A stretch of 64,000 bases of DNA from Chloroflexota bacterium. GTDB lineage: Bacteria; Chloroflexota; Dehalococcoidia; Lucifugimonadales; Lucifugimonadaceae. The translations under genes and the position numbers were made by a program. The notes under the pieces are model-generated. The model was not told where the DNA came from, searched no databases, and worked only from the letters and a program-made list of their open reading frames with translations. The DNA lies in the NCBI GenBank assembly GCA_029262735.1, contig JAJCYY010000013.1, forward strand, positions 4,108 to 68,107. The letters are read 5' to 3'. Shown here piece by piece: positions 22,256 through 42,579 of the stretch; within the stretch, counting starts at the first letter, position 1, and each line of letters starts with the position of its first letter.

Positions 22256-22300
22256 GGGGTGCGGAATCCACACACCTGTTAAGACACATGCTCCGAAGAG
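22256..22300 (-). repeat. Degenerate tRNA-Leu 3' fragment (oldest att remnant)
   Basis: A 19-nt core, CTGTTAAGACACATGCTCC, is identical to the tRNA-Leu at 42494..42579 and to the fragment at 26157. The flanking T-arm and acceptor parts are decayed. Confidence 0.65.
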
Positions 22301-22552
22301 GTATAGCTACGATTCAGCAACATACACTCACATTCAATTCGGATTGAATTGCCTGGGCCGGCGAGCCCCAAAAGTGCGTCCAGGTTCGTGTAGGTTCAAC
22401 TCCGTTGCAGGCTCTCCCATTGCGCGGAGATATAGGATCCATGAACCGAGATCAAAGTGAACCACAACCCCGATACAAGACTCTCTAGAACCCGCCTCCG
22501 GCCCGGTCCGTTGCGCCGAATCCTCAGGCATTCACTGCCAGCTGGGCTCTCT

Positions 22553-24639
22553 TCACCTCAGGATTATTTCGCCAGTGGAATGTACTCGGGCGGCCCGTCG
22601 CCCCGGTGCCAAAACCGAAGGCGGGCCAGACACCACGCTGGTTCCGATCGCAGCTCCTGATCCGATTGACTCTCTATCAGCGTTGGCCTGCTCCAATGAT
22701 CGGCGTCTGACCTTGAACATCATCTCCTCTTCGGAGGCTATAGCCTCCGACTGTCGCAGCGCCTCAATCTTCAGATCGGACTCGTGCATGGCGTCTATCA
22801 GGTCTACAGCTCCCCGAGTGCTTGGCGCGTTCCGAACTGATTCACGCATTGTCTGCTGCAAGCTCTCTTCATCCCTAGCCGCAATTGCAGCCGACTCCCG
22901 CTTCGCACGCGCCTGCGCTTCGGCCTCACGGAGTTCTTGATCGCGCCTCTCTGCCCTGACGATTTCCTGTGCCTGCAGCAAGAACGGCGTCATCCCGTCG
23001 ACATCTTTTGCAAGTGCGATTTCGGATCGACGCTGAGCCTCACTAATAGGCTGCGCATCCAGCGTCTTTAAAATTGTTTCGCCCCTCGCCTGAAAATCCG
23101 CGGTGACAAACTCCGGCGGCCGCAGCTCAGATGGCAGCAGTTCGAACGATCGCCGCATTTCTGCTTCGATCGCGCTCGCACCGGCCTCGCGCTTGGCCTG
23201 GTCCGGGTCGACCACCGGAATTCCGAGATTCCGCAGGAAATCTCTTGCCCCTTCTTCAATGGCCTCAAATGCCCGGCGATGCCGCTCCTTTTCCTTGACC
23301 TGCGCTTCGGCTTCAAGTAAATCAGTGAACTCCTCAACCGCGTCCCGCCGCTCGCTTCTCCGCGCCGCGAAATCCGCACGCGCCAACTGAACCCTTAGAG
23401 ATCGATTGAACTCTTCCAGGCCGGTCAATCCGAAACCTCCCGGGCTGCCGATGGGACTGATACCACGCTGGCGGAACTGATCTCGGAGAAACAGATTGTC
23501 CTGCTCTGCAGGTGACAGATTCTCAAGCCCGGGATTGTTCATTGCGAACTCGGCGCGGGCCTCAGCCTCTTCCTGTGTAAGTGGACCTGCTTCGTCAAAA
23601 CCCAGGAACGTGGGAATATCGGGCATTGGCCCGATGAGTTCAACAGCCTTTTGCAGCAGCGGATCATCCAGGTCTTCTGCTCCTCCATTTATCAGCTCGT
23701 TGAGCCTTTCCGGATCACTGAGAAGCGCCGTCTCCCCTATACCGGCGAGGAGGCTGATTAAGTCTTCGCGGTTCCCCTGCAGAGCCATGTCCACCGCGAG
23801 GGGATTCAGTAAGGTCTGTGAGATTCCTCGTGTTGTAGCATCGTCGAAGATCTTGCCACCAAGAAGACCAGCGAGAGCCTCGACCAGTATCTGGGCTTCA
23901 GGTGATGCGCCCTGCTCGTCCGCTATACCACTGGCCGTACCCGCAACAATCTCTTGCGTTATCGTCCGGCTCAGACTGTCACTCCCGAACAACCGCTGTA
24001 TCGCCTTGCCACCGGGAATTCGGCTAGTAAATTTGAGTCCGAGAAGGAACGCGGGACCGCGACCCAGCGTAGGAACGCCGAGTGGAGAGGCTATGCTCTG
24101 CACCGCGTCCACAAATTCCCCTGTAGGCCCAGGCAAGCTGTCTAGCTGGTCCCGGGTGAAGCCGATGAACGGTGTCGAGAGATTTTCGAGGATGCCACCA
24201 CCGGTGGGATCTGTTTTTAATGGCAGGTCTGGAAAAGTCTGCCTGTCCAGAAAGCGAAAAAAAGCCGGTGCCGTGTTTCTCGTCGTATCTCAGCCAGCGA
24301 CCTTGGATCACCTTCCCTTCTGGGGCCGACGAGCTGCGCCAACCTTCTTTCCAATGCCGCGCTCTGGTTCTGTCTGCGTTCCTCAGAACCAGGAACGCCG
24401 ACGGCAGAATCGAGAATGCCTGCCGAATTACCTCCTAAGCTGTCTATCAAAAAAGCGGCAAGGAGGTCCTTTCGTTTATCGGAAGAGACGGTTTCTACGC
24501 CGCGAAGGCTGAGAAAGAATTCCCCGATAAGCGGGTCTTCAGCCCGCAAAATATCCATGAACTCTACCTCGCCGCCTTCTTCCGGCGGGAAGGCCAACAG
24601 TTTTTCCGCCACCTCGTCAATTCTGTCTCTTGTTACCAT
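22553..24639 (-). pseudogene. Frameshifted coiled-coil protein gene of about 690 codons, function unknown
   Basis: The 140-aa ORF (24217..24639) and the 527-aa ORF (22553..24136) join into one reading frame if the A7 run at 24257-24263 were A8. That gives ...RHRLFFRFLDRQTFPDLPLKTDPTGGGILENL...PGPTGEFVD. The C-terminal half is rich in E/R/A heptad-like sequence. Confidence 0.6.
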
Positions 24640-24741
24640 TTCTCACATCCTGATGGCTGCTGGCGTATTGCCGCTTTTTCCATATCTTTTCAACACATAC
24701 CTACACACTGGCCTACCGAAATCTCTTTCGAGGCTGTTTTA

Positions 24742-25108
24742 ATGAAATCCAGGTGGGAAATCGTTGGTTGGGTTCTGATTGTGATCGCCTTTTTTTGCAA
24801 TTTTGTGGACCCTGAACAGAGGCGGGGCGCCGCCGGGGATAGCCTTTGTTGTAGCCGGAATACTCACCGGGTTTCTGCTGGAAGGGATTGCGAGAGTGTT
24901 TCATCGCACCACGATCTTCCGCGTAGTGTTTCGGTATGAAGATGAAAAAGAGCCTGAAGAAGGTCCATCCAATCCCGGCATCACCCCTGATTCAGAAGAC
25001 CCGCGTAAGCTCATCCGAGGCGGCACCACAACAGGCATAAGAAGCGTCGACTCCCGTCGTGCCGATCTAAACTCCAATGACCCTCGTGACCATATAAACC
25101 GGCACTAG
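24742..25108 (+). pseudogene. Frameshifted paralogue of the small membrane protein at 25299..25688
   Basis: The 24742 ORF (MKSRWEIVGWVLIVIAFF...) and the 24803 ORF (...GIAFVVAGILTGFLLEG...GITPDSEDPRKLIRGGTTTGIRSVDSRRADLNSNDPRDHINRH) together align with the intact copy. The frame changes in the G/C-rich stretch around 24811-24838. Confidence 0.6.
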
Positions 25109-25298
25109 TATCCGAGTCAACGGGCAGCCTCAATTTCCTTCTCATATTCGTTTTCGGCTCCGCCCTCTCTTCATCTGACGTCAGTTCGGACACCAGCCGT
25201 TCTGCGATCTCGCTTTCTTCAACTCGCATATCTCAAATCCTGATCCCTAGTGCGTCGCCGTTTTTGAACTGATTCCGAACACATCTATGTAGACTGGC

Positions 25299-25688
25299 TT
25301 GATGCGACGATCTTCAAAAGCACGTTCAGTCAAAATTCGGTGGGAATTCGTTGGATCCATCCTGTTTTTCGGAACACTCACCGCTATTTGGTGGATCTTT
25401 GTCGACGGCGGAGTGGGGAGGATCATGGCTTTCTATAGCGCCGGATTGGTCACAACGCTACTGCTAGCGGGAGTGCTGTCCAAATTCAGTCACGTCAGAC
25501 TCGTCAGTAAAGTGTTTCCGCTCGATGAGGAAGAGCACCCCGACCCGGACCGTTCTGGCATCACGCCTGATTCAATTGATCCTCGGCAGCATATTCAAGG
25601 CGGAATAGCAACGGGCTTAAGAAGCATCGACTCCCGCCGCGCCGATCCAAACTCCAACGATCCTCGTGACTACATCAATCGGCTCTAA
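25299..25688 (+). CDS. Small two-TM protein with a conserved hydrophilic C-terminal motif
   Basis: 129 aa with two hydrophobic helices. The C-terminus GITPDSIDPRQHIQGGIATGLRSIDSRRADPNSNDPRDYINRL is conserved in the neighbouring paralogue. Confidence 0.55.
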   Translation: MMRRSSKARSVKIRWEFVGSILFFGTLTAIWWIFVDGGVGRIMAFYSAGLVTTLLLAGVLSKFSHVRLVSKVFPLDEEEHPDPDRSGITPDSIDPRQHIQGGIATGLRSIDSRRADPNSNDPRDYINRL

Positions 25689-26156
25689 AATCCAGGGCGC
25701 CGATCACAATTAAGAATCCTTCTCATAATCATTTCCGGCTCCTCTGTTTGTGTCCGTTCAAATGTGACTCCCTTTCGGGATGGCTAACATCGTCGTCTAG
25801 CTCACTCTCACACACACGCCTTTGCCTTTCGACGTTGCAGCCGGATGGGCTCGCCACCGCAAGCTCGTGCGTGGGGATTGTTGGGGCGCCGGATCACTCA
25901 AGACCGCAAACCCTCAAGCCTCTTCAGATTAAAAATACTGGGCATCGGGCACAACAGACATGTCAGGGAGAACAAAGGTGAGTATTGCCGTTGATGGGAG
26001 TCCGCAGGGATCTAACTCCTGGACTCGAAAAAAGTTCACTGGAGACGAGGTCGGGTCTCAAGTAACAGACACGTTCAAGCGTCGTGTCCAACGGTCACTA
26101 GACGCAAGTTTCGGAGCGGCAAATTAAGGTCTCGAAATGATCAACTCGAACGAAAC

Positions 26157-26212
26157 TGGTGGGGAAGGTGGGATTCGAACCCACACGTCTGTTAAGACAC
26201 ATGCTCCTAAGG
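26157..26212 (-). repeat. tRNA-Leu 3' fragment (att remnant)
   Basis: TGGTGGGGAAGGTGGGATTCGAACCCACACGTCTGTTAAGACACATGCTCCTAAGG. This runs from the CCA end to the anticodon loop of tRNA-Leu, with a compensated T-stem variant. Confidence 0.85.
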
Positions 26213-26335
26213 TATTTTCAACTGAGTGCTAGGCGTCCAGAACGACAATCCCAAGCGAAACAGCAATAATTATGTGGCCTAACTTCGGAGCGAAAATCGG
26301 CGGAGAGACAGCGCAGCCTGCTGGTGATACGCCCG

Positions 26336-27361
26336 CTACGCAGAGGCCGCTTGATAGAACTTCTTCGCGGCAAGGAACGCGCCGATGAACCCTTTGTTTC
26401 CTATGCCCCAACTGAAGGCACCTGACGCATCGACGGCGAGCAGTTGATTCGCCATACGCTCCGCCAGTGAATCGTACTCGGCAACAGATGCCCCGACATT
26501 TTCCCGAACCTCTGCTGGTGTCGTCGCGCCGATTTTCGCGGATCGTAGCACCTGGATCGATGCGTGGTTCGCAGCCTCCAGAATGCGATGGGGGAAGTCC
26601 GGGCTGTGTGGTAAAAGCGGGCTGATGGCGACCGAGACGAAGACGCCCTCGTCCTTCAGACGTCGCATGATTCGCAGTCGTCGGTCCGGAGTGATGCCGC
26701 CACGTTCGATCTTCCGTTGTTCAGGCAGAAGATCGGAGCTGATGCTGAAGCTGACACCGACACGCCCCTTCAGTCCTAGTGCAACAAGTCGCTCCAACAC
26801 CTGAGGGTCCTCAACCACTTTTGGTGAACGCGTCTGGCACATCAAGAACACGTTCGACTGGTCGAAGACCTCAAGGTTCTCACGAGTCGTCCGCAACGTT
26901 TCCGGCATTGACAAAAAAGGGTCTGTCTTGGGGCTCATGAACACAGATGCCCCCCCAAGCCCCTTTTTTGGACGTCCTGACGGATCGAGCAGCGCCTTTC
27001 GGAGTCTTGCCGTGATTTCCGGTTTGGGAAGAAGCCAGGATCCCCATTTCCTGAACCAGTAACCGTCTCTTCCACCCGGATAATGCCCTGTCATCAAGTC
27101 CGGCACGTAGCAGAAGCTGCAACTCTTGCCCCAGAGGCAACCAATCCACGGATCGAACGTGTAGATGTTCGCCGGCGCATCGGTCGCCTCGAACTCCGGG
27201 AACGCCCGCTCGCCCGAAAGTTGTCCCCAGAAACCTGACTTCTGGTGGTTGAGCACCACCTTCTGACCCGAAGGCAACAGATCATTTTCTGGGTGCGCCG
27301 GACCGCGGAGAATCGGCTCAAATGAACCGGATAACTGTAAGGGTAACTTGAGTTGCGGCAC
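26336..27361 (-). CDS. Radical-SAM-like enzyme, SplB/COG1533 (DNA repair photolyase)-like, with a Cx5Cx2C triad
   Basis: 341 aa. DPWIGCLWGKSCSFCYVPD (C75, C81, C84). Later strand-like segments VFMSPKTDPF, VGVSFSISS and VSVAISPLLP resemble the COG1533 layout. Confidence 0.5.
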   Translation of the reverse strand: MPQLKLPLQLSGSFEPILRGPAHPENDLLPSGQKVVLNHQKSGFWGQLSGERAFPEFEATDAPANIYTFDPWIGCLWGKSCSFCYVPDLMTGHYPGGRDGYWFRKWGSWLLPKPEITARLRKALLDPSGRPKKGLGGASVFMSPKTDPFLSMPETLRTTRENLEVFDQSNVFLMCQTRSPKVVEDPQVLERLVALGLKGRVGVSFSISSDLLPEQRKIERGGITPDRRLRIMRRLKDEGVFVSVAISPLLPHSPDFPHRILEAANHASIQVLRSAKIGATTPAEVRENVGASVAEYDSLAERMANQLLAVDASGAFSWGIGNKGFIGAFLAAKKFYQAASA

Positions 27362-28117
27362 TTAAGCATCCACACTGTCAGCCGATGATGGCGAGGGAGA
27401 TAACGAATCTCGATCTAGGTAATGCCTGGCAAGCGTCGCAAGAGCGCCGCCCCGGCGAGTCGTGTCGTTCGACCGATGCAAAGCGACATCGAGTGCGAGA
27501 TTCAGCACTCGGTACTCTTCGCTGTGCAGCATAAATCCCATCGAAACCGTTTCGTTCGGAGTTTCTGTCTCTTGTCGAACTTTCTCAGAAGTATCGAAGT
27601 TGGCGATCTCGAGCAGCCTCATGATCTGGCGTTCGCTGTCCGGCAACAGCTCGCAAAGCTCTTCGGTGGAACGCCCATCAAGCAGACCGCAGAGCAGCAC
27701 AGCTCGTCGTTCCGGAATGTCTTTCCCGGAGAGGCGGTTGATTGTAGCCAGGCAAAGCGCCGTTTCCCTATCGTTCAGATTCCAGACAATGCACTGAGCA
27801 GATTCTAGTTGGAGAGCCTGCAGGACCATTAACCGATTTCTTCCATCGATTACTTGGTACTGACCGCGTACTTTAGGGTAGGGACGCACGATGAGTGGTT
27901 CATGGTAACCGGTCAGCTCAATGATCCTCCTCAACTTTGTCAGTCTGTCGGCCGGCATATGATTCGGGCAGCCCACATGAGGAACTAAGCGTTCAAGATT
28001 GATTGAGCGTAGCCTCTCTCTTGAGCATCTTCTCAACCTCCACCAACTTGCCCGATCCCCAACACGCCAATTCTGACTAACGGCTTGCTCAAGAAGCTGG
28101 TACGAGCCTGCTTGCAT
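27362..28117 (-). CDS. ParB/Srx N-terminal-domain protein (ParB-like nuclease/NTPase fold plus HTH-like region)
   Basis: 251 aa. YHEPLIVRPYPKVRGQYQVIDGRNRLMVLQAL matches the ParB N-domain pattern (DG..R). It is followed by ETALCLATINRLSGKDIPERRAVLL. Its stop abuts the radical-SAM start. Confidence 0.6.
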   Translation of the reverse strand: MQAGSYQLLEQAVSQNWRVGDRASWWRLRRCSRERLRSINLERLVPHVGCPNHMPADRLTKLRRIIELTGYHEPLIVRPYPKVRGQYQVIDGRNRLMVLQALQLESAQCIVWNLNDRETALCLATINRLSGKDIPERRAVLLCGLLDGRSTEELCELLPDSERQIMRLLEIANFDTSEKVRQETETPNETVSMGFMLHSEEYRVLNLALDVALHRSNDTTRRGGALATLARHYLDRDSLSPSPSSADSVDA

Positions 28118-29708
28118 TCCTGATATTCAAATCGAGGCTATTCTCTCCGGGTTTCCAGAGCAGATATGCATGGTTGTCCCGAAGCCGGAGTGTTCTTGAA
28201 ACGTCGACTGCCGTGATACCACCGTCGCAGTGTTCAAGAATGTGGGCTTTTAATGTCTGAGGAAACAGGTCGTAGTCTTCGATGAAAAGTAAATCACAGA
28301 CGTCAAGTAACCCGTCCAGGATGCTGGCCCCGTTCGCGGACAACAGGGACTCCTCATTGAATATCCGAGCGGGCGCATAAAAATCGTGCTCACGGCCATC
28401 ATTCGAGTCGCATCCAGTGAGGCGATGCATGCTTCGGTAGAAAGCAGAGAGTGATAGCAGTATGCAAGAACAGCTCGAATCGGCAGCGATTTGGCGGTTT
28501 TGAAATGAAACTGCTCGATCACCGTCACCGAAGCCATAGCAAACTTGACCTAAAAACTTTTCGTTGTGCACGTCAGACTTTTCGAAGGACCTGCGGGCCT
28601 TGGGCTCCATGCACAGATCGGCCCAGGAGAGGCCGGTAATATCGAATTTGCTTAGATTGTTGAGCAGCTTAGAGATGATTCCGATGCGGATACCGTTGGA
28701 AGCTGGCAGCCTGTCGAAAGAATCCAGCCAGCGCCTGTTGTCCTCGGCAAAGAACGTTACGCAGTCAAATTTCTCCTTGATCGATTCGCCGCGAAGGAAT
28801 CGCAGCGGATCCCTCACAACCAGATCCACAGACCAAACACGTACGCGGCAGGAGCCGGATTCAGCAGAGAGTCGAGTCCGGGAGCGTTTGAGCGTCGTGG
28901 AAACCAGGCTCCCGCTACCGGCTCCTATATCCACGATCTCGACGCCTCGATAGGTGTCCTTCTCGGCAGACCACTGTCGTATTACCGGATCAATCACTTT
29001 GTTCACTATGCGCTTGGCTCGCTGCTCAGATCGCGGATCGACACCGCTCGTTGCGAAGTTCGAAAATGCGTCAACTGTCAAGAAACTAGCCGTCCGTGCG
29101 CGATTGGATGCTGCCGGGAAGATCAGCAGCGACAGTTGAGAATTAGGAACCAGCGTTAATTGCCGGTAGTGGTAGAACAGCTCGGCATCTTCGCTGGCAG
29201 CTAGCATGATCAATGGAAGATATCCTGTGCTGTCGGGACTGTTCGGAGCATTCAGCTTTGCCATCAGATAAGCCGGGTTTCTGAGAGTAGTCGTCGCCCC
29301 CGCCTTTCCGTGGCTGTCTGCAGGCGAGGTCAGAATCGCAAAGCACTCGAACGCTAGGACAGTCCTCAATGCAGCTCGGTACTTCATTTCAACGCTCGTC
29401 GACACCACGGCATCCACACTGTTAAGTAATCTGAAGTAGTTGTAGCAGTAGTCAGCTACGTGGGATGAATCGAAGCCACACGCAATATATTCCAGCCAGA
29501 TTCCACGAAGGGACTCCAGACGCTTATCGACTTCATGAATGTGCAAATCCGTCACAGGGGGCCAATACTCTGCCCAGTCGGCCGTATCTATGTGAAATTG
29601 ACCTGATTGATGAACCGTTACGCTCTTGATGAGAGTAGGTTCCTGCAATGCTGATAGAAGTGACCCGCGAAACAAGGATCTTACGGTCTTGTCGGCCATG
29701 CTTGGCAA
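28089..29708 (-). CDS. Large protein with a central class-I SAM-dependent methyltransferase-like domain
   Basis: 539 aa. Motif I VEIVDIGAGSGSL, followed by VRVWSVDLV. The N-terminal roughly 250 aa and C-terminal roughly 150 aa have no motif I recognise. The 3' end overlaps the ParB-like gene by 29 nt. Confidence 0.5.
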   Translation of the reverse strand: MPSMADKTVRSLFRGSLLSALQEPTLIKSVTVHQSGQFHIDTADWAEYWPPVTDLHIHEVDKRLESLRGIWLEYIACGFDSSHVADYCYNYFRLLNSVDAVVSTSVEMKYRAALRTVLAFECFAILTSPADSHGKAGATTTLRNPAYLMAKLNAPNSPDSTGYLPLIMLAASEDAELFYHYRQLTLVPNSQLSLLIFPAASNRARTASFLTVDAFSNFATSGVDPRSEQRAKRIVNKVIDPVIRQWSAEKDTYRGVEIVDIGAGSGSLVSTTLKRSRTRLSAESGSCRVRVWSVDLVVRDPLRFLRGESIKEKFDCVTFFAEDNRRWLDSFDRLPASNGIRIGIISKLLNNLSKFDITGLSWADLCMEPKARRSFEKSDVHNEKFLGQVCYGFGDGDRAVSFQNRQIAADSSCSCILLSLSAFYRSMHRLTGCDSNDGREHDFYAPARIFNEESLLSANGASILDGLLDVCDLLFIEDYDLFPQTLKAHILEHCDGGITAVDVSRTLRLRDNHAYLLWKPGENSLDLNIRNASRLVPAS

Positions 29709-30021
29709 ATGGAACCACCCGAGTGTCCGGTGAAGAAGAGAAATATACGAATCGGGAATCGAGCTCGAGCGCCGGGCTTTTCTTGCCGGTTACGCTCCTC
29801 TCCAACATAGAAACAGGTGACAGCAAGAACAACCGGCATGTCAGGTGAGCTGACTAAACAGCGCCGACAGAGTCTGACGGCAGCGATAAAGAAGATCGCT
29901 CCTAAACAGATGAAAAGAATCGGTGACGAGATCCATTCTCAATCGTCAAACATGCCTATGAAGTGACCAACAAGCGCTAGGCGACAATTTTCAACTCGCC
30001 ACCGAGCCCACTGAACAGCAA

Positions 30022-30075
30022 TGGTGGGGAAGGTGGGATTCGAACCCACACGGATTGCTCCACATGCTCCTAAGG
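30022..30075 (-). repeat. tRNA-Leu 3' fragment (att remnant)
   Basis: TGGTGGGGAAGGTGGGATTCGAACCCACACGGATTGCTCCACATGCTCCTAAGG. The acceptor, T-arm and anticodon arm match tRNA-Leu; the variable arm differs. Confidence 0.85.
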
Positions 30076-30180: not shown

Positions 30181-30200
30181 TACTGTCAGATTGACTGTCT
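30181..30200 (+). repeat. Bipartite motif copy (degenerate): ACTGTCAG-ATTG-ACTGTCTG
   Basis: 13/16 match to ACTGTCAA-N4-ACTGTCAA. It lies 106 nt inside the distal end of island C. Confidence 0.45.
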
Positions 30201-30671
30201 GGTTTGCATCGAACCGTCCATGGAATCAGCACACGAGGGCCAAACACACGCGTCTTCGGGTTGACCTTGTATCTTCTTCGCTAACGTCGCCTGGATGGTG
30301 GCGTCGATGTGACCTTCTCCCCGAGATTCGCGCCGAATTAGGTGATAATTTTCAGGGAAGATTCTGAACCTAAGAATGGGAGATCATGTCGTGAAGAGAT
30401 CTCAGGTTACAAACGATCAGCCGTTCTTCTGGCGGATGTCCCGTACCGCTCCTGTCAGGATTGCTGTCATGTGGTTGCCGAAAACCATGAACGACAATTG
30501 TTACTCCAGTTGGCCCGGCTTGTGATGGAAGTTTTGGGACCATGAGCAGCGGCCGACGGCACATGCTTACCTGATATGAGGTGGACTTCGCGCTGGTTCC
30601 CTGAAGCAGCGATTTCGAATCCTTGTGTTTTCAGGTAATGAATACTGGGCCATGTATTTTTAGGAAACTCA

Positions 30672-30974
30672 TCACCCTCGCTGTATCGGACTCGCATTTA
30701 CTTTTTGCTCATCAATGATGATCTTTGCGGCTGATCCCCACAGGTAACCACCGAGTGCTCCAAACGGAATGCCAGCCACGAAGAGTCCCAGTCCGGCGCC
30801 AATACGAATGCCCATCTCGCCCCAGCCAACTCCGCCGCCCACATCGACGTCGTAATCGAGTGCGAACAGGAGGGCCATGCCGGCGAGGAAACCGGCGATG
30901 GCCACGATCCAGGCAATGACCGAAAGAATGCGGACGAACAGAAACGTCGGCCAGAGAACCAGGTAGCGGATCAT
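30672..30974 (-). CDS. Small Gly-rich integral membrane protein (3 predicted TM)
   Basis: 100 aa. Starts 6 nt after the flotillin-like stop, so it is probably co-transcribed. Confidence 0.6.
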   Translation of the reverse strand: MIRYLVLWPTFLFVRILSVIAWIVAIAGFLAGMALLFALDYDVDVGGGVGWGEMGIRIGAGLGLFVAGIPFGALGGYLWGSAAKIIIDEQKVNASPIQRG

Positions 30975-33089: not shown

Positions 33090-33437
33090 TCAGGTGCTAC
33101 TTCCGAGCTGCCACATCCGGGTACCGACAGCGAAAACCAGAACCGTCGGCACGAACAACGTGATGCCGAATGCCAACTGGAATGCGTAACTGGACCGAAG
33201 CTCTCGGAATCCGATAGCGCGGGAAATTGCCTCTGCGGCATGGAGCAACACCCACGACGTGATCCACATGACCGATGCAAGTGCCAGGACTGGCACTGCC
33301 ATGCAACGCGCTGTCGCCCTGGCAGGCCGCGAAATCAGCGATCTAACCGAAGAGGCCAACGTCGTTCCGGTTGATATGCGTGAAACGACCTCGACCAGTG
33401 TTGAACTTGATGCCTCAATTGCTGCACGGGACTGCAT
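33090..33437 (-). CDS. Hypothetical small membrane protein upstream of the flotillin-like gene
   Basis: 115-aa ORF with two hydrophobic helices in the C-terminal 70 aa. Start codon uncertain (internal Met at MAVPVLAL...). Confidence 0.4.
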   Translation of the reverse strand: MQSRAAIEASSSTLVEVVSRISTGTTLASSVRSLISRPARATARCMAVPVLALASVMWITSWVLLHAAEAISRAIGFRELRSSYAFQLAFGITLFVPTVLVFAVGTRMWQLGSST

Positions 33438-36894: not shown

Positions 36895-36947
36895 AGCTCG
36901 AAATTTCATCTCCAATTCTGACGATCACTGGAGCTAGCGATCGTGAA

Positions 36948-36967
36948 ACTGTCAAACATACTGTCAA
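36948..36967 (+). repeat. Bipartite motif copy: ACTGTCAA-ACAT-ACTGTCAA
   Basis: Perfect 16/16 half-sites. It lies 54 nt after the STAND stop and about 270 nt upstream of the MFS gene. Confidence 0.7.
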
Positions 36968-37234: not shown

Positions 37235-38554
37235 GTGGTCAAGACCGTTGCCGGAAGTTCTGATCAGGACACCACATCGACTGCAACCGCGCCATCTGTC
37301 ACTCACCCGTCTGGCCGCGCGGGCTTGTTCCACTCGTTCAGCTATCGCAGCTTCAGGATGCAGTGGATCGCCGATTCCCTGATGAGTTGGTCGAATGAGA
37401 TGGAGAACCTGATCCTGGGCTGGTTCGTCCTGGTGCAGACCGACTCCCCGTTCTTACTCGGCCTGTTCGGTGCACTGAAATTTCTCGGCACGCTAGTAGC
37501 ACCAATCTATGGCGTCATTGCAGACCGAATGGACCGACGCCACATGCTCATCGGCCTGCGTTCGATATTCGCCGTCCTTGCGTTGACTGTCACGACGCTG
37601 GCGCTGACCGGCACACTCGAAGTGTGGCACGTGTTCGTCATCGCCACCCTGACCGGCATGATTCGCGTGGCAGATAACGTAGCCCGGCAGGCGCTCATCG
37701 CCGACATTGTTCCCCGCGAATCCCTGCTGAACGCGTATGGCCTCACTCGCACCACACAGGACTCAGCGAAGATAGCGGGTTCGTTGATTGGCGCTGGACT
37801 ATTCGCCCAATTCGGTCTTGGCCTCGCCTATACAGGCGTAACCGTTCTATATGCCAGTTCCGTGGTGTTCATCGCTGCGGTGAGCATCGTGCGTCGGGCT
37901 GTTCCTTCGCAGCGTGATCCAGTCTTCCGTACGCTCAAGTCGGGAGTCTCATATATGCGCGATTCTCCGACCATCATGGCGGTGATGTTCCTGGCATTCC
38001 TGGTGAACCTCACTGCCTTCCCGCTCTCGAACGGCCTGATGCCAGTTGTAGCACGCGACCTGTTCAACACGGACGAGAACGGGCTGGCGAGGCTGCTGGC
38101 GGCAGTTGCCTCCGGGGCGCTGACGGGGTCTATCGCGATGGCTGCGTTGTCACGCATCGCGCGGCCTGACCGCGTGATGCTGTTTGGGGTAGTGGCGTGG
38201 CATCTGTTCCTGTTGTTGTTCGCCCAGTTTGACACCGCGGGGCCGGCGTTCCCCGTGCTGGCAACGGTGGGATTCGCCAGTTCAGTTTCAATGATCTCGA
38301 TGACCGTACTCCTCATGACCACAGTACAACGAGAGTTTCGCGGTCGCGTAATGGGCGTTCGGATGCTGGCGGTCTATGGGCTACCGATGGGACTGCTGAT
38401 AGGCGGTGCGCTTGCTGAAGTGTTCGGAATCCAGGCGACGATCACGATCTACGGCATTGTCGGCCTGGTGCTCACGGCGCTGTCAGTGGTCGTCTGGCCG
38501 CAGTTATTGCGAAGCGGAGCAGTGATAGGGAGCGATGCTCCGCCCCGCGAGTAA
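37235..38554 (+). CDS. MFS transporter
   Basis: 439 aa with about 12 predicted TM helices. MFS loop motif GVIADRMDRRHML between TM2 and TM3. Confidence 0.8.
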   Translation: MVKTVAGSSDQDTTSTATAPSVTHPSGRAGLFHSFSYRSFRMQWIADSLMSWSNEMENLILGWFVLVQTDSPFLLGLFGALKFLGTLVAPIYGVIADRMDRRHMLIGLRSIFAVLALTVTTLALTGTLEVWHVFVIATLTGMIRVADNVARQALIADIVPRESLLNAYGLTRTTQDSAKIAGSLIGAGLFAQFGLGLAYTGVTVLYASSVVFIAAVSIVRRAVPSQRDPVFRTLKSGVSYMRDSPTIMAVMFLAFLVNLTAFPLSNGLMPVVARDLFNTDENGLARLLAAVASGALTGSIAMAALSRIARPDRVMLFGVVAWHLFLLLFAQFDTAGPAFPVLATVGFASSVSMISMTVLLMTTVQREFRGRVMGVRMLAVYGLPMGLLIGGALAEVFGIQATITIYGIVGLVLTALSVVVWPQLLRSGAVIGSDAPPRE

Positions 38555-38630
38555 GGCCGTCATTGCCCGAACAGTTCCCGACCCACGATGGATTCTGCAA
38601 TCGCGGCATCGGTACCACCTTGCCCGCCCA

Positions 38631-38660
38631 TTCGCCTTCGCCTTCGCCTTCGCCTTCGCC
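38631..38660. repeat. Hexanucleotide microsatellite (TTCGCC)x5
   Basis: Read directly. Intergenic, between the MFS and KAP gene ends. Confidence 0.9.
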
Positions 38661-38678
38661 TGTCAAAGTTACTGTGAA
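38659..38678 (+). repeat. Bipartite motif copy (near-perfect): CCTGTCAA-AGTT-ACTGTGAA
   Basis: 14/16 match, immediately after the microsatellite. Confidence 0.5.
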
Positions 38679-38875: not shown

Positions 38876-41659
38876 CTAGCTTTCGTCCGTTGATACTTCC
38901 GGTTCTTCCAACGGTACCTTCGGATTCGTACCGCTCGTCGGCGACGCCGGGGCGTTGAGAATGGAACTCTCGAACTGTTGTTTCGCCACCTCAGCCGACT
39001 TTTCTCCAAATATGACCACCTTCTGAAGATTCGCCGCCAACACAGGATTGACCAGATCCCGGGAGTGAGAGGCCATATAAGCAGCCACGCGGAGTCTCAG
39101 CAGCAACCTCCTCAACTCTTCTTTTCCATCCCGCAAGATGATTCCATCCACCCGCTTGGGGACAGAAGTGTTGGTCGATTGGAATGTCAACAAGTCACCG
39201 CTTTCGGAAGTCTCCTCGTCCGCGTAAGTTCTGGGGTTGGCCACAATTTGCTCAGAATCTGCGATAGTAACTTTTTCTCTGGAAAGGCCTTTCAATTTTG
39301 AATCCCAAAGTTCGGCTGGTGGATTGGCGAATCCGTCAATAAAGTACTTGGGATCCCAGTTGCTCTCGTTTCCCAGGTAGCTGAAAATCCTGTTCTTATC
39401 GTCGATATCCACATCTGGTGACCCGAGCACCTGCTGCAAGAAGGCATGCGACTCTTGCCTCAATACCAGTGGGATTACCATTGGCAGGCATCCATCATCC
39501 AGAGGTTGTTTGTCATCAGTAGATTTCAGTGCGATGTCGGCGATTCGCAGTATCTCCCGAGGAACACCGCCGGCAAGCACACAAATGCCGTGTCCGACGG
39601 CTTTTGGCAGCACGTTCCGCTTCGGCAGATTTGACCTCAGCCGATCGGAACCGGGATCTGTTCGATCACTCTGTGCTGGACTATACGATTTGCTAGATGC
39701 CGAACCTCTACTTCCTGTTGACGTTGGCTCAGGTTTGATCAACTTCGAAACTACGTCATTGACGCCCCGCCTCAGTGCATCTAACAACTGTGGAAAAGTC
39801 GCTGGCGGTTGTCGTTTAGATTCGGGCACCGGTTTGTGTAGTGATACAGCGATTCGCTCATCCAACAACTTCCACGCCTCTGCAGGTCGTAGGGGACCGA
39901 ACGCAAAGACCTGGTTGAACGAGCTACTAAATTCGTCGCGTCCCCGGAAGGATCCCATTCGGTACGCGCTGGCTGCCTCATCCGAGATGGACATCAGGAA
40001 GTGAACATTTTTGGCCGCAAAGATTCCCTTGATGTCCCTCAATAGCTTTCGAACGTCCTCTTCATCGTCGATTTTATCGAGCTCATCGATGCCGATCACG
40101 ACATTGCCAAGCATCGCTTCCTGCGCCCGTTCGGCAAGATCCGCGAACTCTTTCACGAGCGAAGTTACCGTATACGGTCTTTCCACGAGCTCCTTGCTGC
40201 GGGAAAACTTCACTAGCCCCGTTAACCATTTGCCGCCCTCGGCCCCGAACTCTGAACTGCGTCGTTCGCTGCTGGAGTAGCGAACCCACTCTTTTGCACG
40301 CTCAGCGCGCCTTTTCACGACACGGAGTTGCTGGTTTCTCTGTTTCTGGTTTGTGAAATTCTTGGCAGGAATTATCAACGAAAGAAACGGGATGAATGCC
40401 AGCGCGCCTCCAGAGACTGCCGCCAATATCGAAAAGGAGTTGTAGAGAGTCATTGGCGGAGCCTGATCGCCCTCGCGGACCAGAAAGGACCAATCATGGG
40501 ACGCGGTGTACCGAATCGCGACTACCAATCCGACCCAAACTACCACTGAAAATGATGTCACCCACAACGAATCTACATTGTCGAAATTAGTCCTGATTGA
40601 GGCGCCCCGCCCTTCATATCTTGAACTCCGGGCTAAACGTCTGAGATATGACCACGTCCTTGATGGCGTATTCCTGAGGAGGGAAGGAAAACCGTACTTT
40701 AGCAACCAGTTTTCTGATCTTGATGTGTCGGATTCTGATTGTTTAGCTTGCGGCGTGCCGGAGTCTGGTAGTTCAGCTTGTGCCCTGTCGGACCCTGACT
40801 GTTCAGAAGGCGAATTGTCGGACTTCTCGCTCGCCTCTGTACCCGTGGTGACCCATTTCCATGCGAGCTGCGAAGCTACTAAGCCTGACAAAAGTGTCGC
40901 AGCCACCAGGATCAGGAATTTTAGTATCTTGCTGATGTCTGCTTGCTGGTTCGAGAACTCCCAGCTCAGTGCCGCACCCATTGCGATCAACAACAGGATG
41001 GTGACTCCGAGCAACGCATCAAAACCTACCTGTGAATACCTGATGACTGCGAACCGGTTTGGCTGCCCGTCAAATTCGGATGCGTCCAGATCCGTGGCCC
41101 CTAGTGCTACGCGCTGCCTGTTTGACCGGCGTCCCATGTACTTAATTGCTTTGCCGGTCTTTGCAACCACCGCGTCAGCCAGCGTGTATATGAGGGTTTC
41201 CAGGAATGGCAGAGCCTTGTATTCGCTGGGAACCGGAGCCCAGATTCCGACTCCGTAGTCCTCTTTGCCGGATTCAGAATGATTTCGTTGCTGGTCATCA
41301 TCGCGGGATTTCTCGTTGCTGTTTGGCCCGTCCTTTCTATTATCGTTGTTCGAATCCGACAAGTTCACTGGTTGCTGGGCATTCGCCAGATCAACGGCCT
41401 GCTGTATGAACCAGGTCTTTCCGGCTCCTCTTGGTCCAGAAACTCCGAACGAGCCTCCTTCGATTTCCAGCAACGCATCCGGGCTCTGTGATCTGTCCCA
41501 TTTCTCGAAGCGATCAGAACGAAACGAGGTGAAGACATCCGCGTTTTTGATCTTCTTCCACGTCCGGTTGTTTTCCTGCCCGCCGTCTTCCGTGGTTTTT
41601 TCGTTATCAGGGGATGTGTTTTCCACCTCGGGACCCGTTGCACCATTAGGAATTGACAT
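38876..41659 (-). CDS. KAP-family P-loop NTPase with transmembrane helices inserted in the NTPase domain
   Basis: 927 aa. Walker A VSGPRGAGKTWF at about aa 75 and Walker B VVIGIDELDKIDDEED at about aa 520. Four hydrophobic helices lie between them (e.g. LLGVTILLLIAMGAALSW, FLILVAATLLSGLVASQLAW, SFSVVVWVGLVVAI, ILAAVSGGALAFIPFLSLII). Confidence 0.7.
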   Translation of the reverse strand: MSIPNGATGPEVENTSPDNEKTTEDGGQENNRTWKKIKNADVFTSFRSDRFEKWDRSQSPDALLEIEGGSFGVSGPRGAGKTWFIQQAVDLANAQQPVNLSDSNNDNRKDGPNSNEKSRDDDQQRNHSESGKEDYGVGIWAPVPSEYKALPFLETLIYTLADAVVAKTGKAIKYMGRRSNRQRVALGATDLDASEFDGQPNRFAVIRYSQVGFDALLGVTILLLIAMGAALSWEFSNQQADISKILKFLILVAATLLSGLVASQLAWKWVTTGTEASEKSDNSPSEQSGSDRAQAELPDSGTPQAKQSESDTSRSENWLLKYGFPSLLRNTPSRTWSYLRRLARSSRYEGRGASIRTNFDNVDSLWVTSFSVVVWVGLVVAIRYTASHDWSFLVREGDQAPPMTLYNSFSILAAVSGGALAFIPFLSLIIPAKNFTNQKQRNQQLRVVKRRAERAKEWVRYSSSERRSSEFGAEGGKWLTGLVKFSRSKELVERPYTVTSLVKEFADLAERAQEAMLGNVVIGIDELDKIDDEEDVRKLLRDIKGIFAAKNVHFLMSISDEAASAYRMGSFRGRDEFSSSFNQVFAFGPLRPAEAWKLLDERIAVSLHKPVPESKRQPPATFPQLLDALRRGVNDVVSKLIKPEPTSTGSRGSASSKSYSPAQSDRTDPGSDRLRSNLPKRNVLPKAVGHGICVLAGGVPREILRIADIALKSTDDKQPLDDGCLPMVIPLVLRQESHAFLQQVLGSPDVDIDDKNRIFSYLGNESNWDPKYFIDGFANPPAELWDSKLKGLSREKVTIADSEQIVANPRTYADEETSESGDLLTFQSTNTSVPKRVDGIILRDGKEELRRLLLRLRVAAYMASHSRDLVNPVLAANLQKVVIFGEKSAEVAKQQFESSILNAPASPTSGTNPKVPLEEPEVSTDES

Positions 41660-42182
41660 CGGCTGTGCCTTCTTTTTACATACGGCCCTCTAGCGCGAGG
41701 ACAACGCTGAGTTCACTGTGCGATCATATTCCAGGTTGGATCCTACGGATTGGAGAGAGTGACCGCCCGCTAGACGAATCAGAATCATTCCCATCGAATC
41801 CGCTGAGCGGATGGAACGGCATGATCGTAGTGAAACCGTCGATCCTAGTGGATTGTGTACAAACTTATCGTTGTTCACAACACATTGGCTATCCTAAAAG
41901 ACTCTCATCAGGAAGTCGAAACAACGATTCAGATCATGACTCTCCCATTGACCCACCGAGGTCGAGACCCTGGAACAAGGCCACAAGATTCTGGGAGGTC
42001 AGAGTCTGCTGCCGTTCTACGATTATCCCGTTCGTTGCAGGATCCCAACTTCCGAGTCGAACTCCGACCCTCGAGACACAATTGCCGATCAACTTTGTCT
42101 GTGTCGGTCAATGAATTCAACGTGCTCCTGGGAAGCGCCGAGAGCGGAACCCCTATGAATCGTGCCAATACCGATAACGTTG

Positions 42183-42202
42183 ACTGTCAACACTACTGTC
42201 AA
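42183..42202 (+). repeat. Bipartite motif copy: ACTGTCAA-CACT-ACTGTCAA
   Basis: Perfect 16/16, in the non-coding arm between the KAP gene and tRNA-Leu. Confidence 0.7.
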
Positions 42203-42424
42203 AAAACCTCATTTCCCGTGGACGGGCGATTGTTGCATCTCGATATCAGCTTCTGAAGGCTGCTTAGCACATGCTTCCCGATCTTGACAGCGATTGAAGT
42301 GGGGTTCTGGTCTGAACTTTCATCTCCGACAGGCCTAACAGTCCTTGAAATTGACCTGATCGGTGGAACTGAGGTAATACGAACTCCGAATCGAGATGCG
42401 CCCGTATTCATAGCCACAGGTGAA

Positions 42425-42444
42425 ACTGTCAAAACTACTGTCAA
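42425..42444 (+). repeat. Bipartite motif copy: ACTGTCAA-AACT-ACTGTCAA
   Basis: Perfect 16/16, 50 nt from the 3' end of the tRNA-Leu gene. Confidence 0.7.
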
Positions 42445-42493
42445 TCCGTGTTTCGGACGACCTCATGAATTCCTCGAAACAGCTAAGTTGAAC

Positions 42494-42579
42494 TGGTGGG
42501 GAAGGGGGGATTCGAACCCCCACGTCTGTTAAGACACATGCTCCTAAGGCATGCGCGTCTGCCATTTCGCCACTTCCCC
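42494..42579 (-). tRNA. tRNA-Leu, anticodon UAG, type II (long variable arm), CCA encoded
   Basis: The reverse complement folds by eye. Acceptor GGGGAAG/CTTCCCC. Anticodon arm CATGC-CTTAGGA-GCATG. Variable arm TGTCTTAACAGACGT. T-arm GGGGG-TTCGAAT-CCCCC. Ends in ACCA. Confidence 0.9.

What the first reader, a model, noticed from the sequence alone, without database searches (positions are those of the whole stretch)
22256..42579. Tandem array of three genomic islands stacked at one tRNA-Leu(UAG) gene
The intact tRNA-Leu (42494..42579, minus strand) is followed, in the tRNA 3' direction, by three same-orientation partial copies of its 3' portion at 30022..30075, 26157..26212 and (degenerate) 22256..22300. 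Each copy runs from the CCA end and loses identity right after CATGCTCCTAAGG, which is inside the anticodon loop. That is the classic crossover position for tRNA-targeting tyrosine integrases. This partitions 20 kb into islands of about 12.4, 3.8 and 3.9 kb. Spot GC counts of single lines are about 48-50% inside the islands versus about 67% in a core line. No integrase, excisionase or transposase ORF is visible in any island, so they are either fixed remnants or mobilised in trans.
Basis: partly seen in the sequence, partly recalled or inferred. Interest (0 to 1): 0.75.

Follow-up and report, generated by a model that had tools for sequence, protein, structure and literature searches.

The report
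Integrase-less island stack behind tRNA-Leu
Three blocks of foreign DNA (12.4, 3.8 and 3.9 kb), each ending in a leftover copy of the 3' half of one tRNA-Leu gene, are stacked behind that gene in an uncultured SAR202-type Chloroflexota genome; this is a well-known way for genomes to grow, and it is unusual here only because none of the three blocks has its own integrase.

Summary
An intact tRNA-Leu(UAG) gene (42494-42579, minus strand) is followed in its 3' direction by three same-orientation copies of its 3' part: 30022-30075, 26157-26212 and a degenerate 22256-22300. All three start in the anticodon loop. They are not local duplicates. They differ from the live gene by a compensatory T-stem pair, and one has a different variable arm. 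Two of them still complete a valid tRNA-Leu when joined to the 5' half. Synteny with four related Dehalococcoidia (SAR202-type) genomes stops at the tRNA. One relative has island B abutting the intact tRNA, with the 12.4-kb island A missing. No integrase, excisionase or transposase domain was found in any ORF or in six-frame translations of the unassigned DNA. Composition is only mildly deviant: GC 54-56% against 58%, GC3 0.61 against 0.68. The best reading is successive tyrosine-integrase-type insertions at one tRNA, newest next to the gene. These left integrase-less (CIME-like) islands. They carry orphan genes, a KAP-NTPase/STAND/SPFH/MFS set, and a conserved methyltransferase-fold/ParB/radical-SAM module. 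This is a known kind of structure in a little-studied lineage, of modest interest.

The parts
42494..42579 (-). Intact tRNA-Leu(UAG) gene. Its last 56 nt (42494-42549) are the proximal attachment-site repeat. The T stem here is GGGGG/CCCCC, unlike all relatives and all fragments, so the 3' half was probably supplied by island A.
   Evidence: ARAGORN; Rfam 60.5 bits; comparison with L001-L003 and L100
30076..42493 (.). Island A (12,418 bp), the newest. It carries a KAP NTPase, an MFS transporter, a STAND regulator, an SPFH protein and small membrane ORFs.
   Evidence: Bounded by the tRNA and copy30. Absent from relative L100, where the tRNA abuts island B. Pfam.
38876..41659 (-). 927-aa KAP-family P-loop NTPase (island A). 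Near-orphan. GC3 0.58.
   Evidence: Pfam PF07693, E 6.4e-6; only 5 distant homologues; GC3
37235..38554 (+). 439-aa MFS efflux-type transporter (island A).
   Evidence: Pfam MFS_3/MFS_1; NCBIfam TIGR00900
33685..36894 (+). 1069-aa STAND regulator (island A) with AAA_16 ATPase and TPR domains. The N-terminal ~150 aa look like a sigma-70 region-4-type helix-turn-helix by eye.
   Evidence: Pfam; N-terminal sequence (the HTH is my reading, not a database hit)
30981..33020 (-). 679-aa SPFH/Band 7 protein (island A). Small ORFs flank it at 33090-33437, 30672-30974 and 30467-30697.
   Evidence: Pfam PF01145, E 9.6e-18
30022..30075 (-). Fragment 'copy30': tRNA-Leu 3' half (54 nt) with its own variable arm (T-GGA-GCAA-TCC-G) and the U-A T-stem pair. 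It separates islands A and B.
   Evidence: Joined to the native 5' half it gives a valid tRNA-Leu.
26213..30021 (.). Island B (3,809 bp): one three-gene operon and nothing else.
   Evidence: Bounded by copy30 and copy26. 78% identical to the DNA that abuts the tRNA in L100.
28089..29708 (-). 539-aa protein of a small uncharacterised family (island B). It has a VDIGAGSG motif and a class I SAM-methyltransferase-like fold.
   Evidence: No Pfam, NCBIfam, PADLOC or PHROG hit. 32 homologues. AF2 pLDDT 81 with weak Foldseek hits to methyltransferase folds.
27362..28117 (-). 251-aa ParB_N-domain protein (island B).
   Evidence: Pfam PF02195, E 5e-6; PHROG ParB-like and methyltransferase families
26336..27361 (-). 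341-aa radical SAM protein (island B), nearest to the PA0069 / Rv2578c / 'mobile pair B' families (SPL-like group, as the L102 orthologue's weak SPL hit suggests).
   Evidence: Pfam PF04055; NCBIfam hits below their cut-offs. The same trio is present in L102 and L107-L109; L101 has only the family protein and a ParB_N gene.
26157..26212 (-). Fragment 'copy26': tRNA-Leu 3' half (56 nt), 100% identical to the native 3' half in relatives L001-L003 and L100. It separates islands B and C.
22301..26156 (.). Island C (3,856 bp), the oldest. It holds a 527-aa coiled-coil-like orphan (22553-24136 -), a 140-aa ORF (24217-24639 -), and two paralogous small membrane ORFs (24803-25108 + and 25299-25688 +).
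   Evidence: No family hits. The 527-aa protein has 5 hits among 1.84 billion representatives. Lowest GC3, 0.55-0.59.
22256..22300 (-). Fragment 'copy22': decayed tRNA-Leu 3' half and distal end of the array. It lies 240 bp upstream of the DUF1800 start.
   Evidence: (family D3). It no longer completes a tRNA. Homology to relatives starts at 22014-22015.
42472..42493 (-). About 22-nt trailer after the CCA end (GTTCAACTTAGCTGTTTCGAGG). It is conserved after the tRNA in L003 and L100 and recognisable after copy26 and copy30, so the repeat unit extends past the gene.
   Evidence: flank comparison by eye; L003 homology reaches 42474
42425..42444 (-). TTGACAGT-N4-TTGACAGT tandem motif 50 nt after the tRNA end. 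Further perfect copies are at 42183-42202 and 36948-36967. Degenerate copies are at 38659-38678 and 30182-30201. It could be an integrase arm-type site or the operator of the island's regulator.
   Evidence: 6 matches against 0.31 expected, all on one strand; none in the 105 other loci held at that point
42809..43816 (+). Core flank on the tRNA 5' side: SMP-30/gluconolactonase-like gene, followed by ftsZ (43912-45258 -).
   Evidence: Pfam; syntenic in L003 and L100
20630..22015 (-). Core flank at the distal end: DUF1800 gene, first gene of a conserved DUF1800-DUF1501-NHL block (18355-22015).
   Evidence: Pfam; 76% nt identity blocks in L103-L105 that end at 22014-22015

Best explanation
The 20 kb behind tRNA-Leu(UAG) is a stack of three separately acquired integrative elements. 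Each entered by site-specific recombination between an element-borne copy of the tRNA 3' part (attP) and the chromosomal gene (attB). The crossover lay in the anticodon-loop region, the commonest sublocation used by tyrosine integrases. Each insertion rebuilt the gene with the element's own 3' half and pushed the previous 3' half outwards together with whatever lay behind it. The order of arrival is therefore C, then B, then A, and the live tRNA is a chimera: native 5' half plus island A's 3' half.

The elements have since lost their integration genes, or never had them, and are now cargo-only islands of the CIME type. A and B still have intact core sequences on both sides, so an integrase supplied in trans could in principle excise them. 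C has a decayed distal site and is fixed.

Shown: the repeats, their orientation, their allelic differences, the synteny break, the absence of island A in one relative, the absence of recombinase domains, and the mild compositional deviation.

Inferred: the class of recombinase, the crossover position, the order of events, and that the integrases were lost rather than always supplied in trans.
For: - The repeats are at the stated coordinates, all on the tRNA strand, all starting at CCTTAGG.
- The fragments are functional-looking alleles. The T-stem pair is G-C in the live gene and U-A in all fragments and relatives. Copy30 has a distinct variable arm. Chimeras of the native 5' half with copy30 or copy26 are valid tRNA-Leu; copy22 is not.
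- Decay increases with distance from the gene.
- Copy26 is 56/56 identical to the native 3' half of L001-L003 and L100.
- Synteny with L001-L004 ends at the tRNA 3' end.
- L100 has SGL, tRNA, then island B, without island A, with the breakpoints at the repeat.
- Homology of the distal core block begins 240 bp beyond copy22.
- GC3 is 0.61 inside against 0.68 outside (p = 3e-4). GC and tetranucleotide deviation give p = 0.006 and 0.009 on non-overlapping 2-kb windows.
- Island genes are near-orphans, or form a self-contained module found elsewhere in unrelated contexts.
- The same architecture is documented in Islander (anticodon-centred attP in 2083 of 3919 islands; tandem arrays; PMC4383910), in streptococcal CIME accretion (PMC5704250) and in Prochlorococcus islands (bioRxiv 10.1101/2020.12.28.424599).
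Against: - No integrase or relic of one was found anywhere in the 64-kb window, nor next to the tRNA in L001-L004 and L100. The recombinase is entirely hypothetical.
- The simple model predicts that copy30 equals the 3' half seen next to island B in L100. It does not: the variable arm and about 45 nt of trailer differ. At least one more event is needed.
- L100 is a single 3.4-kb contig of a very fragmented assembly, so a mis-join across the 56-nt repeat cannot be excluded.
- Islands B and C have no empty-site evidence.
- All relatives at about 76-85% identity have poor synteny here anyway.
- The middle of island A (31-38 kb) is compositionally host-like.
Confidence: 0.78

Rival explanations
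1. The three blocks are not dead remnants but working integrase-free cassettes. A tRNA-Leu-specific integrase encoded elsewhere in the genome, or on a transient element, would insert, excise and reshuffle them in trans. That would make the tRNA an integron-like cassette platform.
For: All three blocks lack a recombinase. A and B keep intact core sequences on both sides. Island B is a minimal single-operon unit. It sits at the same tRNA in another genome, again with no integrase between the tRNA and the first gene and with a different tRNA-half allele, as independent insertion would give. Short repeated motifs lie near both ends of island A.
Against: No integrase has been identified. No second copy or circular form was seen. 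The Logan contigs merely break at the 30-nt repeat. Elsewhere the B module has no tRNA or att context. Decay of the distal site fits passive ageing. Loss of integrases from resident islands is the commonly described route (PMC5704250).
Confidence: 0.15
2. The array was assembled in another host and arrived here in one step as a composite island, so only one integration happened in this lineage.
For: Composite tandems are known to transfer as units (PMC5704250). Copy30 carries a variable arm not seen in this lineage or in the metagenomes searched.
Against: L100 has island B without island A at the same tRNA. Copy26 is identical to this lineage's native 3' half. The graded decay of the fragments suggests different ages.
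Confidence: 0.08
3. This is simply a hypervariable chromosomal region remodelled by rearrangement and homologous recombination. The tRNA fragments are relics of old events and do not delimit the present gene blocks.
For: Every relative has different DNA after the tRNA. L004 is colinear with the window but lacks the equivalent of 10.3-42.5 kb. The DUF1800 block has different flanks in every genome looked at, with IS elements nearby in L105.
Against: The A/B boundary coincides to within a few nucleotides with a fragment when compared with L100. Island B is exactly one module between two fragments. GC3 steps down inside the fragment-bounded blocks.
Confidence: 0.08
4. The fragments are chance similarities, or local duplications of the resident tRNA gene.
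For: None beyond the degenerate state of copy22.
Against: 0.00 matches are expected by chance, with E values of 1e-5 to 1e-23. The compensatory T-stem difference and the separate variable arm exclude copying from the resident gene.
Confidence: 0.01

Closest known systems
Tandem arrays of tDNA-integrated genomic islands as catalogued by Islander (Hudson, Lau and Williams 2015, PMC4383910; sublocation classes after Williams 2002)
   Same: An intact tRNA gene plus displaced 3' fragments in the same orientation mark the island ends. The identity block runs from the anticodon loop to the 3' end ('anticodon centred attP site A', 2083 of 3919 islands). Several islands share one tDNA.
   Different: Islander accepts a tandem member only if it has its own integrase gene, and here none does. 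Arrays of three or more are rare in that set (4 cases). The host is an uncultured SAR202-type Dehalococcoidia, a group for which I found no such description.
CIMEs (cis-mobilizable elements) and site-specific accretion, ICESt1/ICESt3 family of Streptococcus thermophilus (Pavlovic 2004 and Bellanger 2011, as reviewed in PMC5704250)
   Same: The elements have lost integration and transfer genes but keep attL and attR. [quoted passage not shown]
   Different: Those elements are known to derive from ICEs or IMEs and to be mobilised by a related resident ICE. Here no conjugation, relaxase or integrase relic shows what the islands derive from, and mobilisation is untested. The target is a tRNA anticodon loop, not the 3' end of fda.
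Prochlorococcus genomic islands built by tycheposons (Hackl et al., bioRxiv 10.1101/2020.12.28.424599)
   Same: A marine, streamlined, uncultured-type host. Islands sit next to a tRNA. [quoted passage not shown] Degenerated elements and scattered partial tRNAs are present. The cargo is small adaptive or defence modules.
   Different: Tycheposons are defined by their integrase and replication modules, and none is present here. No homology to them was tested or found. The phylum is different.
Integron cassette arrays (analogy only)
   Same: Small promoter-poor cargo units, each ending in a recombination site, stacked at one chromosomal platform without recombinases of their own.
   Different: There is no IntI, attI or attC. 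The sites are tRNA halves. The units are 4-12 kb with their own operons. Mobility is not shown.

Membership tests
tDNA-integrated genomic island (Islander definition) | Intact tRNA gene plus a displaced fragment of the same gene, in the same orientation, marking the other island end | tested here: met
   There are three fragments, all on the minus strand like the gene.
tDNA-integrated genomic island (Islander definition) | Tyrosine (or serine) integrase gene inside each island | tested here: not met
   Pfam on the ORFs of 70 aa or more judged likely to be genes. Six-frame Pfam scan of all unassigned DNA from 22016 to 42493 at E up to 0.5. PHROGs, NCBIfam and PADLOC also gave nothing.
tDNA-integrated genomic island (Islander definition) | Identity block corresponds to a recognised sublocation (anticodon loop, T loop or T/acceptor junction) and restores the gene | tested here: met
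   Identity starts at CCTTAGG, the first bases of the anticodon loop, and runs past the CCA end. The gene is intact. Fragments joined to the 5' half restore a tRNA.
tDNA-integrated genomic island (Islander definition) | Presence/absence polymorphism among related genomes with breakpoints at the repeats | tested here: inconclusive
   Met for island A, on one short contig (L100). No informative relative was found for B or C.
tDNA-integrated genomic island (Islander definition) | Composition deviating from the host | tested here: met
The deviation is weak but significant. GC is 55.4% against 58.0% (p = 0.006), tetranucleotide p = 0.009, GC3 0.61 against 0.68 (p = 3e-4).
CIME (cis-mobilizable element) | Lacks integration and transfer genes | tested here: met
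CIME (cis-mobilizable element) | Retains both attL and attR | tested here: met
   Met for A and B, whose core CCTTAGGAGCATG and T arm are intact on both sides. For C the distal site is decayed.
CIME (cis-mobilizable element) | Derived from an ICE or IME by deletion, and mobilisable after accretion with a related ICE | not testable with these tools
   No relaxase, coupling-protein or integrase relic was found, and no related complete element turned up in the phage, plasmid, IMG/VR or metagenome searches. Mobility needs an experiment or read-level data.
Tycheposon | Tycheposon-clade tyrosine recombinase plus a replication module (helicase/primase) | tested here: not met
   No recombinase, helicase or primase domain in the islands
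Tycheposon | Integration at a tRNA gene, leaving a full-length proximal and a partial distal tRNA | tested here: met
Prophage or phage satellite | Phage structural, packaging or replication genes | tested here: not met
   PHROGs hits only to ParB-like and methyltransferase families and one family of unknown function. No similarity to phage or IMG/VR records.
Known anti-phage defence system (PADLOC 2.0) | Match of the island proteins to a catalogued system | tested here: not met
   Only weak domain-level hits (ParB_N to MTase_II, TPR)

The most novel reading that the evidence does not exclude
The tRNA-Leu(UAG) gene serves as a cassette platform. Small integrase-free cargo units, each ending in a tRNA-half recombination site, would be inserted, stacked and exchanged between SAR202-type genomes by an integrase that is never part of the cargo. 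That would be an integron-like economy built on tRNA attachment sites. The hints are that island B, a single-operon unit, sits at the same tRNA in a second genome with a different tRNA-half allele and again without an integrase, and that all three units here lack one.
Probability: 0.13. Interest if true: 0.6.

Novelty: new member of a known kind. Interest (0 to 1): 0.3.

Why it matters
It gives a precisely delimited example of how the flexible genome of SAR202-type Dehalococcoidia is built. These are abundant, uncultured ocean bacteria whose mobile elements are hardly described. Foreign modules accrete at one tRNA gene, and the live tRNA is itself a chimera of host and element DNA.

It also shows that pipelines which demand an integrase in every island would miss this array completely. 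The fragment-bounded blocks mark out candidate functional modules for study. One is the conserved methyltransferase-fold/ParB/radical-SAM trio. Another is the KAP NTPase with a STAND regulator.

If the cargo units prove to be moved in trans, that would be a more interesting mode of gene exchange. As it stands, the structure is a textbook mechanism in a new host.

Tried and rejected
- **Rfam/Infernal on the fragments.** Only the intact gene scores as tRNA. The halves are too short for the model (one 14-bit tmRNA T-arm hit at 26168-26184), so alignment to the gene and chimera tests were used instead.
- **Integrase relics.** Pfam on the likely genes, six-frame Pfam on every unassigned stretch of the array, and PHROGs, NCBIfam and PADLOC gave nothing. 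No integrase turned up among the 20 larger ORFs scanned elsewhere in the window.
- **The two large unknown proteins as a shared novel recombinase.** They are unrelated to each other. One has a methyltransferase-like fold. The other is a coiled-coil-like orphan.
- **The element family elsewhere.** Exact and degenerate tRNA-half patterns in IMG/VR gave 0 hits. In JGI metagenomes they gave 18 hits, all intact tRNA-Leu genes of more distant SAR202 with conserved neighbours and no fragments. Megablast of the whole array against phages and plasmids found nothing. A profile of the island B protein against IMG/VR found nothing.
- **An empty site from the distal side.** Orthologues of the DUF1800 gene (76-84% identity) have unrelated DNA upstream and no tRNA-Leu.
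- **An excised circle of island B.** The 3,869-bp Logan contig L106 is just the chromosomal segment 30051-26183, broken at the 30-nt repeat.
- **Further decayed fragments between 10.3 and 22 kb**, which L004 hinted at. None was found.
- **Naming the source genome.** The exact-sequence look-ups returned no accession.

Full report
**1. The observation**

ARAGORN finds a single tRNA in the window, tRNA-Leu(UAG) at 42494-42579 on the minus strand. Rfam scores it as tRNA at 60.5 bits.

Reading the minus strand downstream of the gene, three partial copies of its 3' portion lie in the same orientation.
- 26157-26212: 56 nt with 2 mismatches.
- 30022-30075: 15 nt identical, a different variable arm, then 31 nt with 2 mismatches.
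- 22256-22300: a 19-nt exact core inside a 35-nt stretch of 86-89% identity, with the T arm decayed.

A 51-mer search allowing 3 mismatches expects 0.00 chance matches. An exact 19-mer is expected about 5e-7 times.

All copies lose identity immediately 5' of CCTTAGG, the first bases of the anticodon loop. The blocks between them measure 12,418, 3,809 and 3,856 bp.

**2. The fragments are alleles, not local copies**

The live gene has a T stem GGGGG/CCCCC. All three fragments have U-A at the second pair, a compensatory double change. So do the tRNA-Leu genes of four related genomes (L001-L003 and L100).

Copy30 has its own short variable arm (T-GGA-GCAA-TCC-G). Copy26 is 56/56 identical to the native 3' half in L001-L003 and L100.

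Joined in silico to the native 5' half, copy30 and copy26 each give a valid tRNA-Leu(UAG) in ARAGORN. Copy22 no longer does.

About 22 nt of trailer after the CCA end are also recognisably shared, so the repeat unit extends past the gene.

This pattern is expected if each fragment was once the working 3' end of the gene, and if the present 3' end was brought in by the last element to integrate. It excludes chance and duplication of the resident gene.

**3. Host and comparative evidence**

The ftsZ product next to the tRNA is 83-85% identical to those of uncultured Dehalococcoidia MAGs of the SAR202 type. Four of the 38 best-scoring loci scanned for tRNAs carry tRNA-Leu(UAG) after ftsZ.

In all four, DNA and protein homology to the window runs from about 53 kb down to the tRNA and stops at its 3' end. 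Behind the tRNA they carry unrelated genes and no integrase. L001 has FHA, PP2C and Ser/Thr kinase genes. L002 and L003 have giant surface proteins. L004 has an RraA-like gene.

L004 then continues colinearly with the window's B12 transporter genes (10293 down to 6794). The equivalent of 10.3-42.5 kb is therefore missing there.

From the other side, the DUF1800-DUF1501-NHL block (18355-22015) is conserved at about 76% nt identity in L103-L105. Homology ends at 22014-22015, 240 bp from copy22, and different DNA lies beyond in each genome.

**4. The decisive relative**

The closest homologue of the island B 539-aa protein (71% aa) lies on a 3.4-kb contig, L100 (GCA_025450675.1). That contig has four parts:
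- the end of the SGL gene (82% nt identity to 43217-42914);
- the same 5' flank;
- an intact tRNA-Leu;
- from within the tRNA onward, DNA 78% identical to window 30079-27427.

In other words, island B directly abuts the tRNA. Island A is absent, with breakpoints at the repeats. So island A behaves as a discrete insertion or deletion unit.

Two caveats apply. L100 is one short contig of a fragmented assembly. Its tRNA 3' half and about 55 nt of trailer are of the lineage-typical type, not the copy30 type. The simplest history, A inserting into an L100-like ancestor, is therefore not sufficient. Either two variants of island B with different attP alleles integrated independently, or one lineage had an extra integration-and-deletion event.

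**5. Contents, and the missing recombinase**

Island A encodes:
- a 927-aa KAP-family NTPase, a near-orphan with 5 distant homologues;
- an MFS transporter;
- a 1069-aa STAND protein (AAA_16 plus TPR);
- a 679-aa SPFH protein;
- small membrane ORFs.

Island B is exactly one operon. It has a 539-aa protein of a small family (32 homologues) with a VDIGAGSG motif and a methyltransferase-like predicted fold. It also has a ParB_N protein and a radical SAM protein nearest the PA0069/Rv2578c families. The same trio is an operon in a Dehalococcoidales MAG and in a groundwater organism. It is partly present in L101, which has the family protein and a ParB_N gene but no radical SAM gene on record. None of these has a tRNA gene in the stretch scanned (L101, L102) or an integrase among the neighbouring genes.

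Island C holds a 527-aa coiled-coil-like orphan, with 5 hits among 1.84 billion representatives, and a few small ORFs.

No integrase, excisionase, transposase or other recombinase domain was found:
- in any likely gene;
- in six-frame translations of every unassigned stretch between 22016 and 42493 at E up to 0.5;
- in PHROGs, NCBIfam or PADLOC;
- among the 20 larger ORFs scanned elsewhere in the window.

The two large unknown proteins are unrelated to each other. There is no similarity to phage, plasmid or IMG/VR sequences.

**6. Composition**

By segment, C is 54.8%, B 53.7% and A 55.8% GC, against 58.6% and 57.5% for the flanks.

| Measure | Inside | Outside | p |
|---|---|---|---|
| GC, non-overlapping 2-kb windows | 55.4% | 58.0% | 0.006 |
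| Tetranucleotide distance to a leave-one-out reference | 0.257 | 0.226 | 0.009 |
| Gene GC3 | 0.61 | 0.68 | 3e-4 |

The first two rows are; the GC3 values are and their test.

The most deviant parts are island C, the 539-aa gene of island B and the KAP gene. The middle of island A is host-like.

**7. Mechanism**

The best-supported account is successive site-specific integrations at one tRNA gene, with crossover in the anticodon-loop region. Each integration rebuilds the gene from the element's attP and displaces the former 3' half outward.

The gradient of decay (copy30 and copy26 intact, copy22 decayed), the foreign T-stem allele in the live gene, and the absence of A in L100 all fit an arrival order of C, B, A.

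The recombinase class is inferred from the site anatomy and from established knowledge, not observed. Tyrosine integrases use the anticodon-loop, T-loop and T/acceptor sublocations. Anticodon-centred sites make up 2083 of 3919 Islander islands (PMC4383910).

The islands are now cargo-only, like CIMEs: elements that have lost integration and transfer genes but retain attL and attR, and at which new elements accrete (PMC5704250). Whether the integrases were lost or were always supplied in trans cannot be decided from this window.

**8. Rivals**

- **Active trans-mobilised cassettes.** This is not excluded. Intact cores around A and B, and the same single-operon island at the same tRNA in L100 with another allele and no integrase, fit it. 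But there is no integrase, no junction evidence, and the B module is not att-associated elsewhere.
- **En-bloc acquisition of a ready-made array.** L100, and copy26 being the lineage's own allele, count against it.
- **A generic hypervariable region with irrelevant relic fragments.** This fits the poor synteny of all relatives. It does not fit the nucleotide-level coincidence of the A/B boundary with a fragment, nor island B being exactly one module between two fragments.
- **Chance or local duplication.** Excluded.

**9. Comparison with what is known**

The structure works like Islander-type tandem tDNA islands, streptococcal CIME accretions and the tRNA-anchored islands of Prochlorococcus. 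[quoted passage not shown]

Membership in the strict Islander sense fails on the integrase criterion. Tycheposon membership fails on the integrase and replication modules. CIME features are met as far as sequence can show, but origin and mobility are untestable here.

I found no paper describing such arrays in SAR202.

**10. Verdict**

This is a real, well-delimited, integrase-less triple island array at tRNA-Leu(UAG). It is a new member of a known kind. The interest is modest: the mechanism is textbook, the host is little studied, and the cargo modules and the question of trans-mobilisation are worth a follow-up.

Noticed in passing
window 42425-42444, 42183-42202, 36948-36967 (perfect); 38659-38678, 30182-30201, 45427-45446 (2-3 mismatches); all minus strand: A tandem direct repeat TTGACAGT-N4-TTGACAGT with 12-bp periodicity. 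There are 6 matches against 0.31 expected, and none in the 105 other loci held at that point. Copies lie 50 nt after the tRNA end, near the far end of island A and on both sides of the MFS gene. A single CGGATTGACAGT sits at the same offset after the tRNA in L003. It could be an integrase arm-type site or the operator of the island's STAND regulator.
   Followed up: partly
window 26336-29708 (-); L102 4930-8506; L107 10001-13619; L101 3920-6347: A conserved, uncharacterised operon: a ~530-aa protein with a methyltransferase-like fold, a radical SAM protein (PA0069/Rv2578c-like) and a ParB_N protein, sometimes with a ~135-aa fourth gene. L101 has only the ~530-aa protein and the ParB_N gene. 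The order of the ParB and radical SAM genes is swapped in the window. It is not in PADLOC 2.0, and no paper was found that links these parts.
   Followed up: partly
window 24803-25108 (+) and 25299-25688 (+): Two paralogous small ORFs in island C, each with a hydrophobic N-terminal part and a conserved C-terminal tail (GITPDSxDPRxxIxGGxxTGxRSxDSRRADxNSNDPRDxINR). The underlying DNA repeat is 24977-25161 against 25557-25742, 74% identical.
   Followed up: no
window 10294-22255 compared with L004 8254-13222: L004 is colinear with the window but goes from tRNA-Leu through an RraA-like gene straight to the B12 ABC transporter genes (window 10293 down to 6794). The window's cobU/cobS/cobT genes, imuB-dnaE2 cassette and DUF1800 block may therefore be older additions without surviving att sites, or L004 may have lost them.
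   Followed up: partly
window 18355-22015 (-); L103 5893-9562; L105 10001-13641: DUF1800-DUF1501-NHL-repeat genes form a 3.7-kb block conserved at about 76% nt identity. Both of its flanks differ in each relative where both could be seen (L103, L105). In L105 it lies next to two IS110-family transposases, an rve-type transposase and a second DUF1800 paralogue.
   Followed up: partly
window 12899-18080 (-): An error-prone polymerase cassette: a DnaE2-type Pol III alpha (1186 aa), a 119-aa ORF, and an ImuB-like Y-family polymerase homologue (420 aa).
   Followed up: no
window 6460-6663 (+): A cobalamin riboswitch (110 bits) in front of a B12-type ABC transporter operon (6794-10293). The cobU, cobS and cobT genes are convergent just after it (10286-12713).
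   Followed up: no
window 38629-38659: A (GGCGAA)5 microsatellite between the MFS and KAP genes, directly beside a degenerate TTGACAGT pair.
   Followed up: no
window 33685-34150 (+), residues ~40-150 of the STAND protein: The N-terminal domain gave no Pfam, NCBIfam or PDB sequence match, but by eye it resembles a sigma-70 region-4 / LuxR-type helix-turn-helix (LLNARYIEGLEPEVVWRRIGHGRSSFFRHVSSGIDELARQF). That suggests a DNA-binding STAND regulator.
   Followed up: no
L081 (window 26186-20375) and L106 (window 30051-26183), Logan assembly of SRR15505512: An independent short-read assembly of one public run contains this strain at 100% identity. Its contigs break exactly in the 30-nt stretch shared by copy26 and copy30. 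That run is the obvious place to look for junction reads.
   Followed up: partly
window 43840-43910: A 32-nt imperfect inverted repeat between the convergent SGL and ftsZ genes, probably a bidirectional terminator.
   Followed up: no
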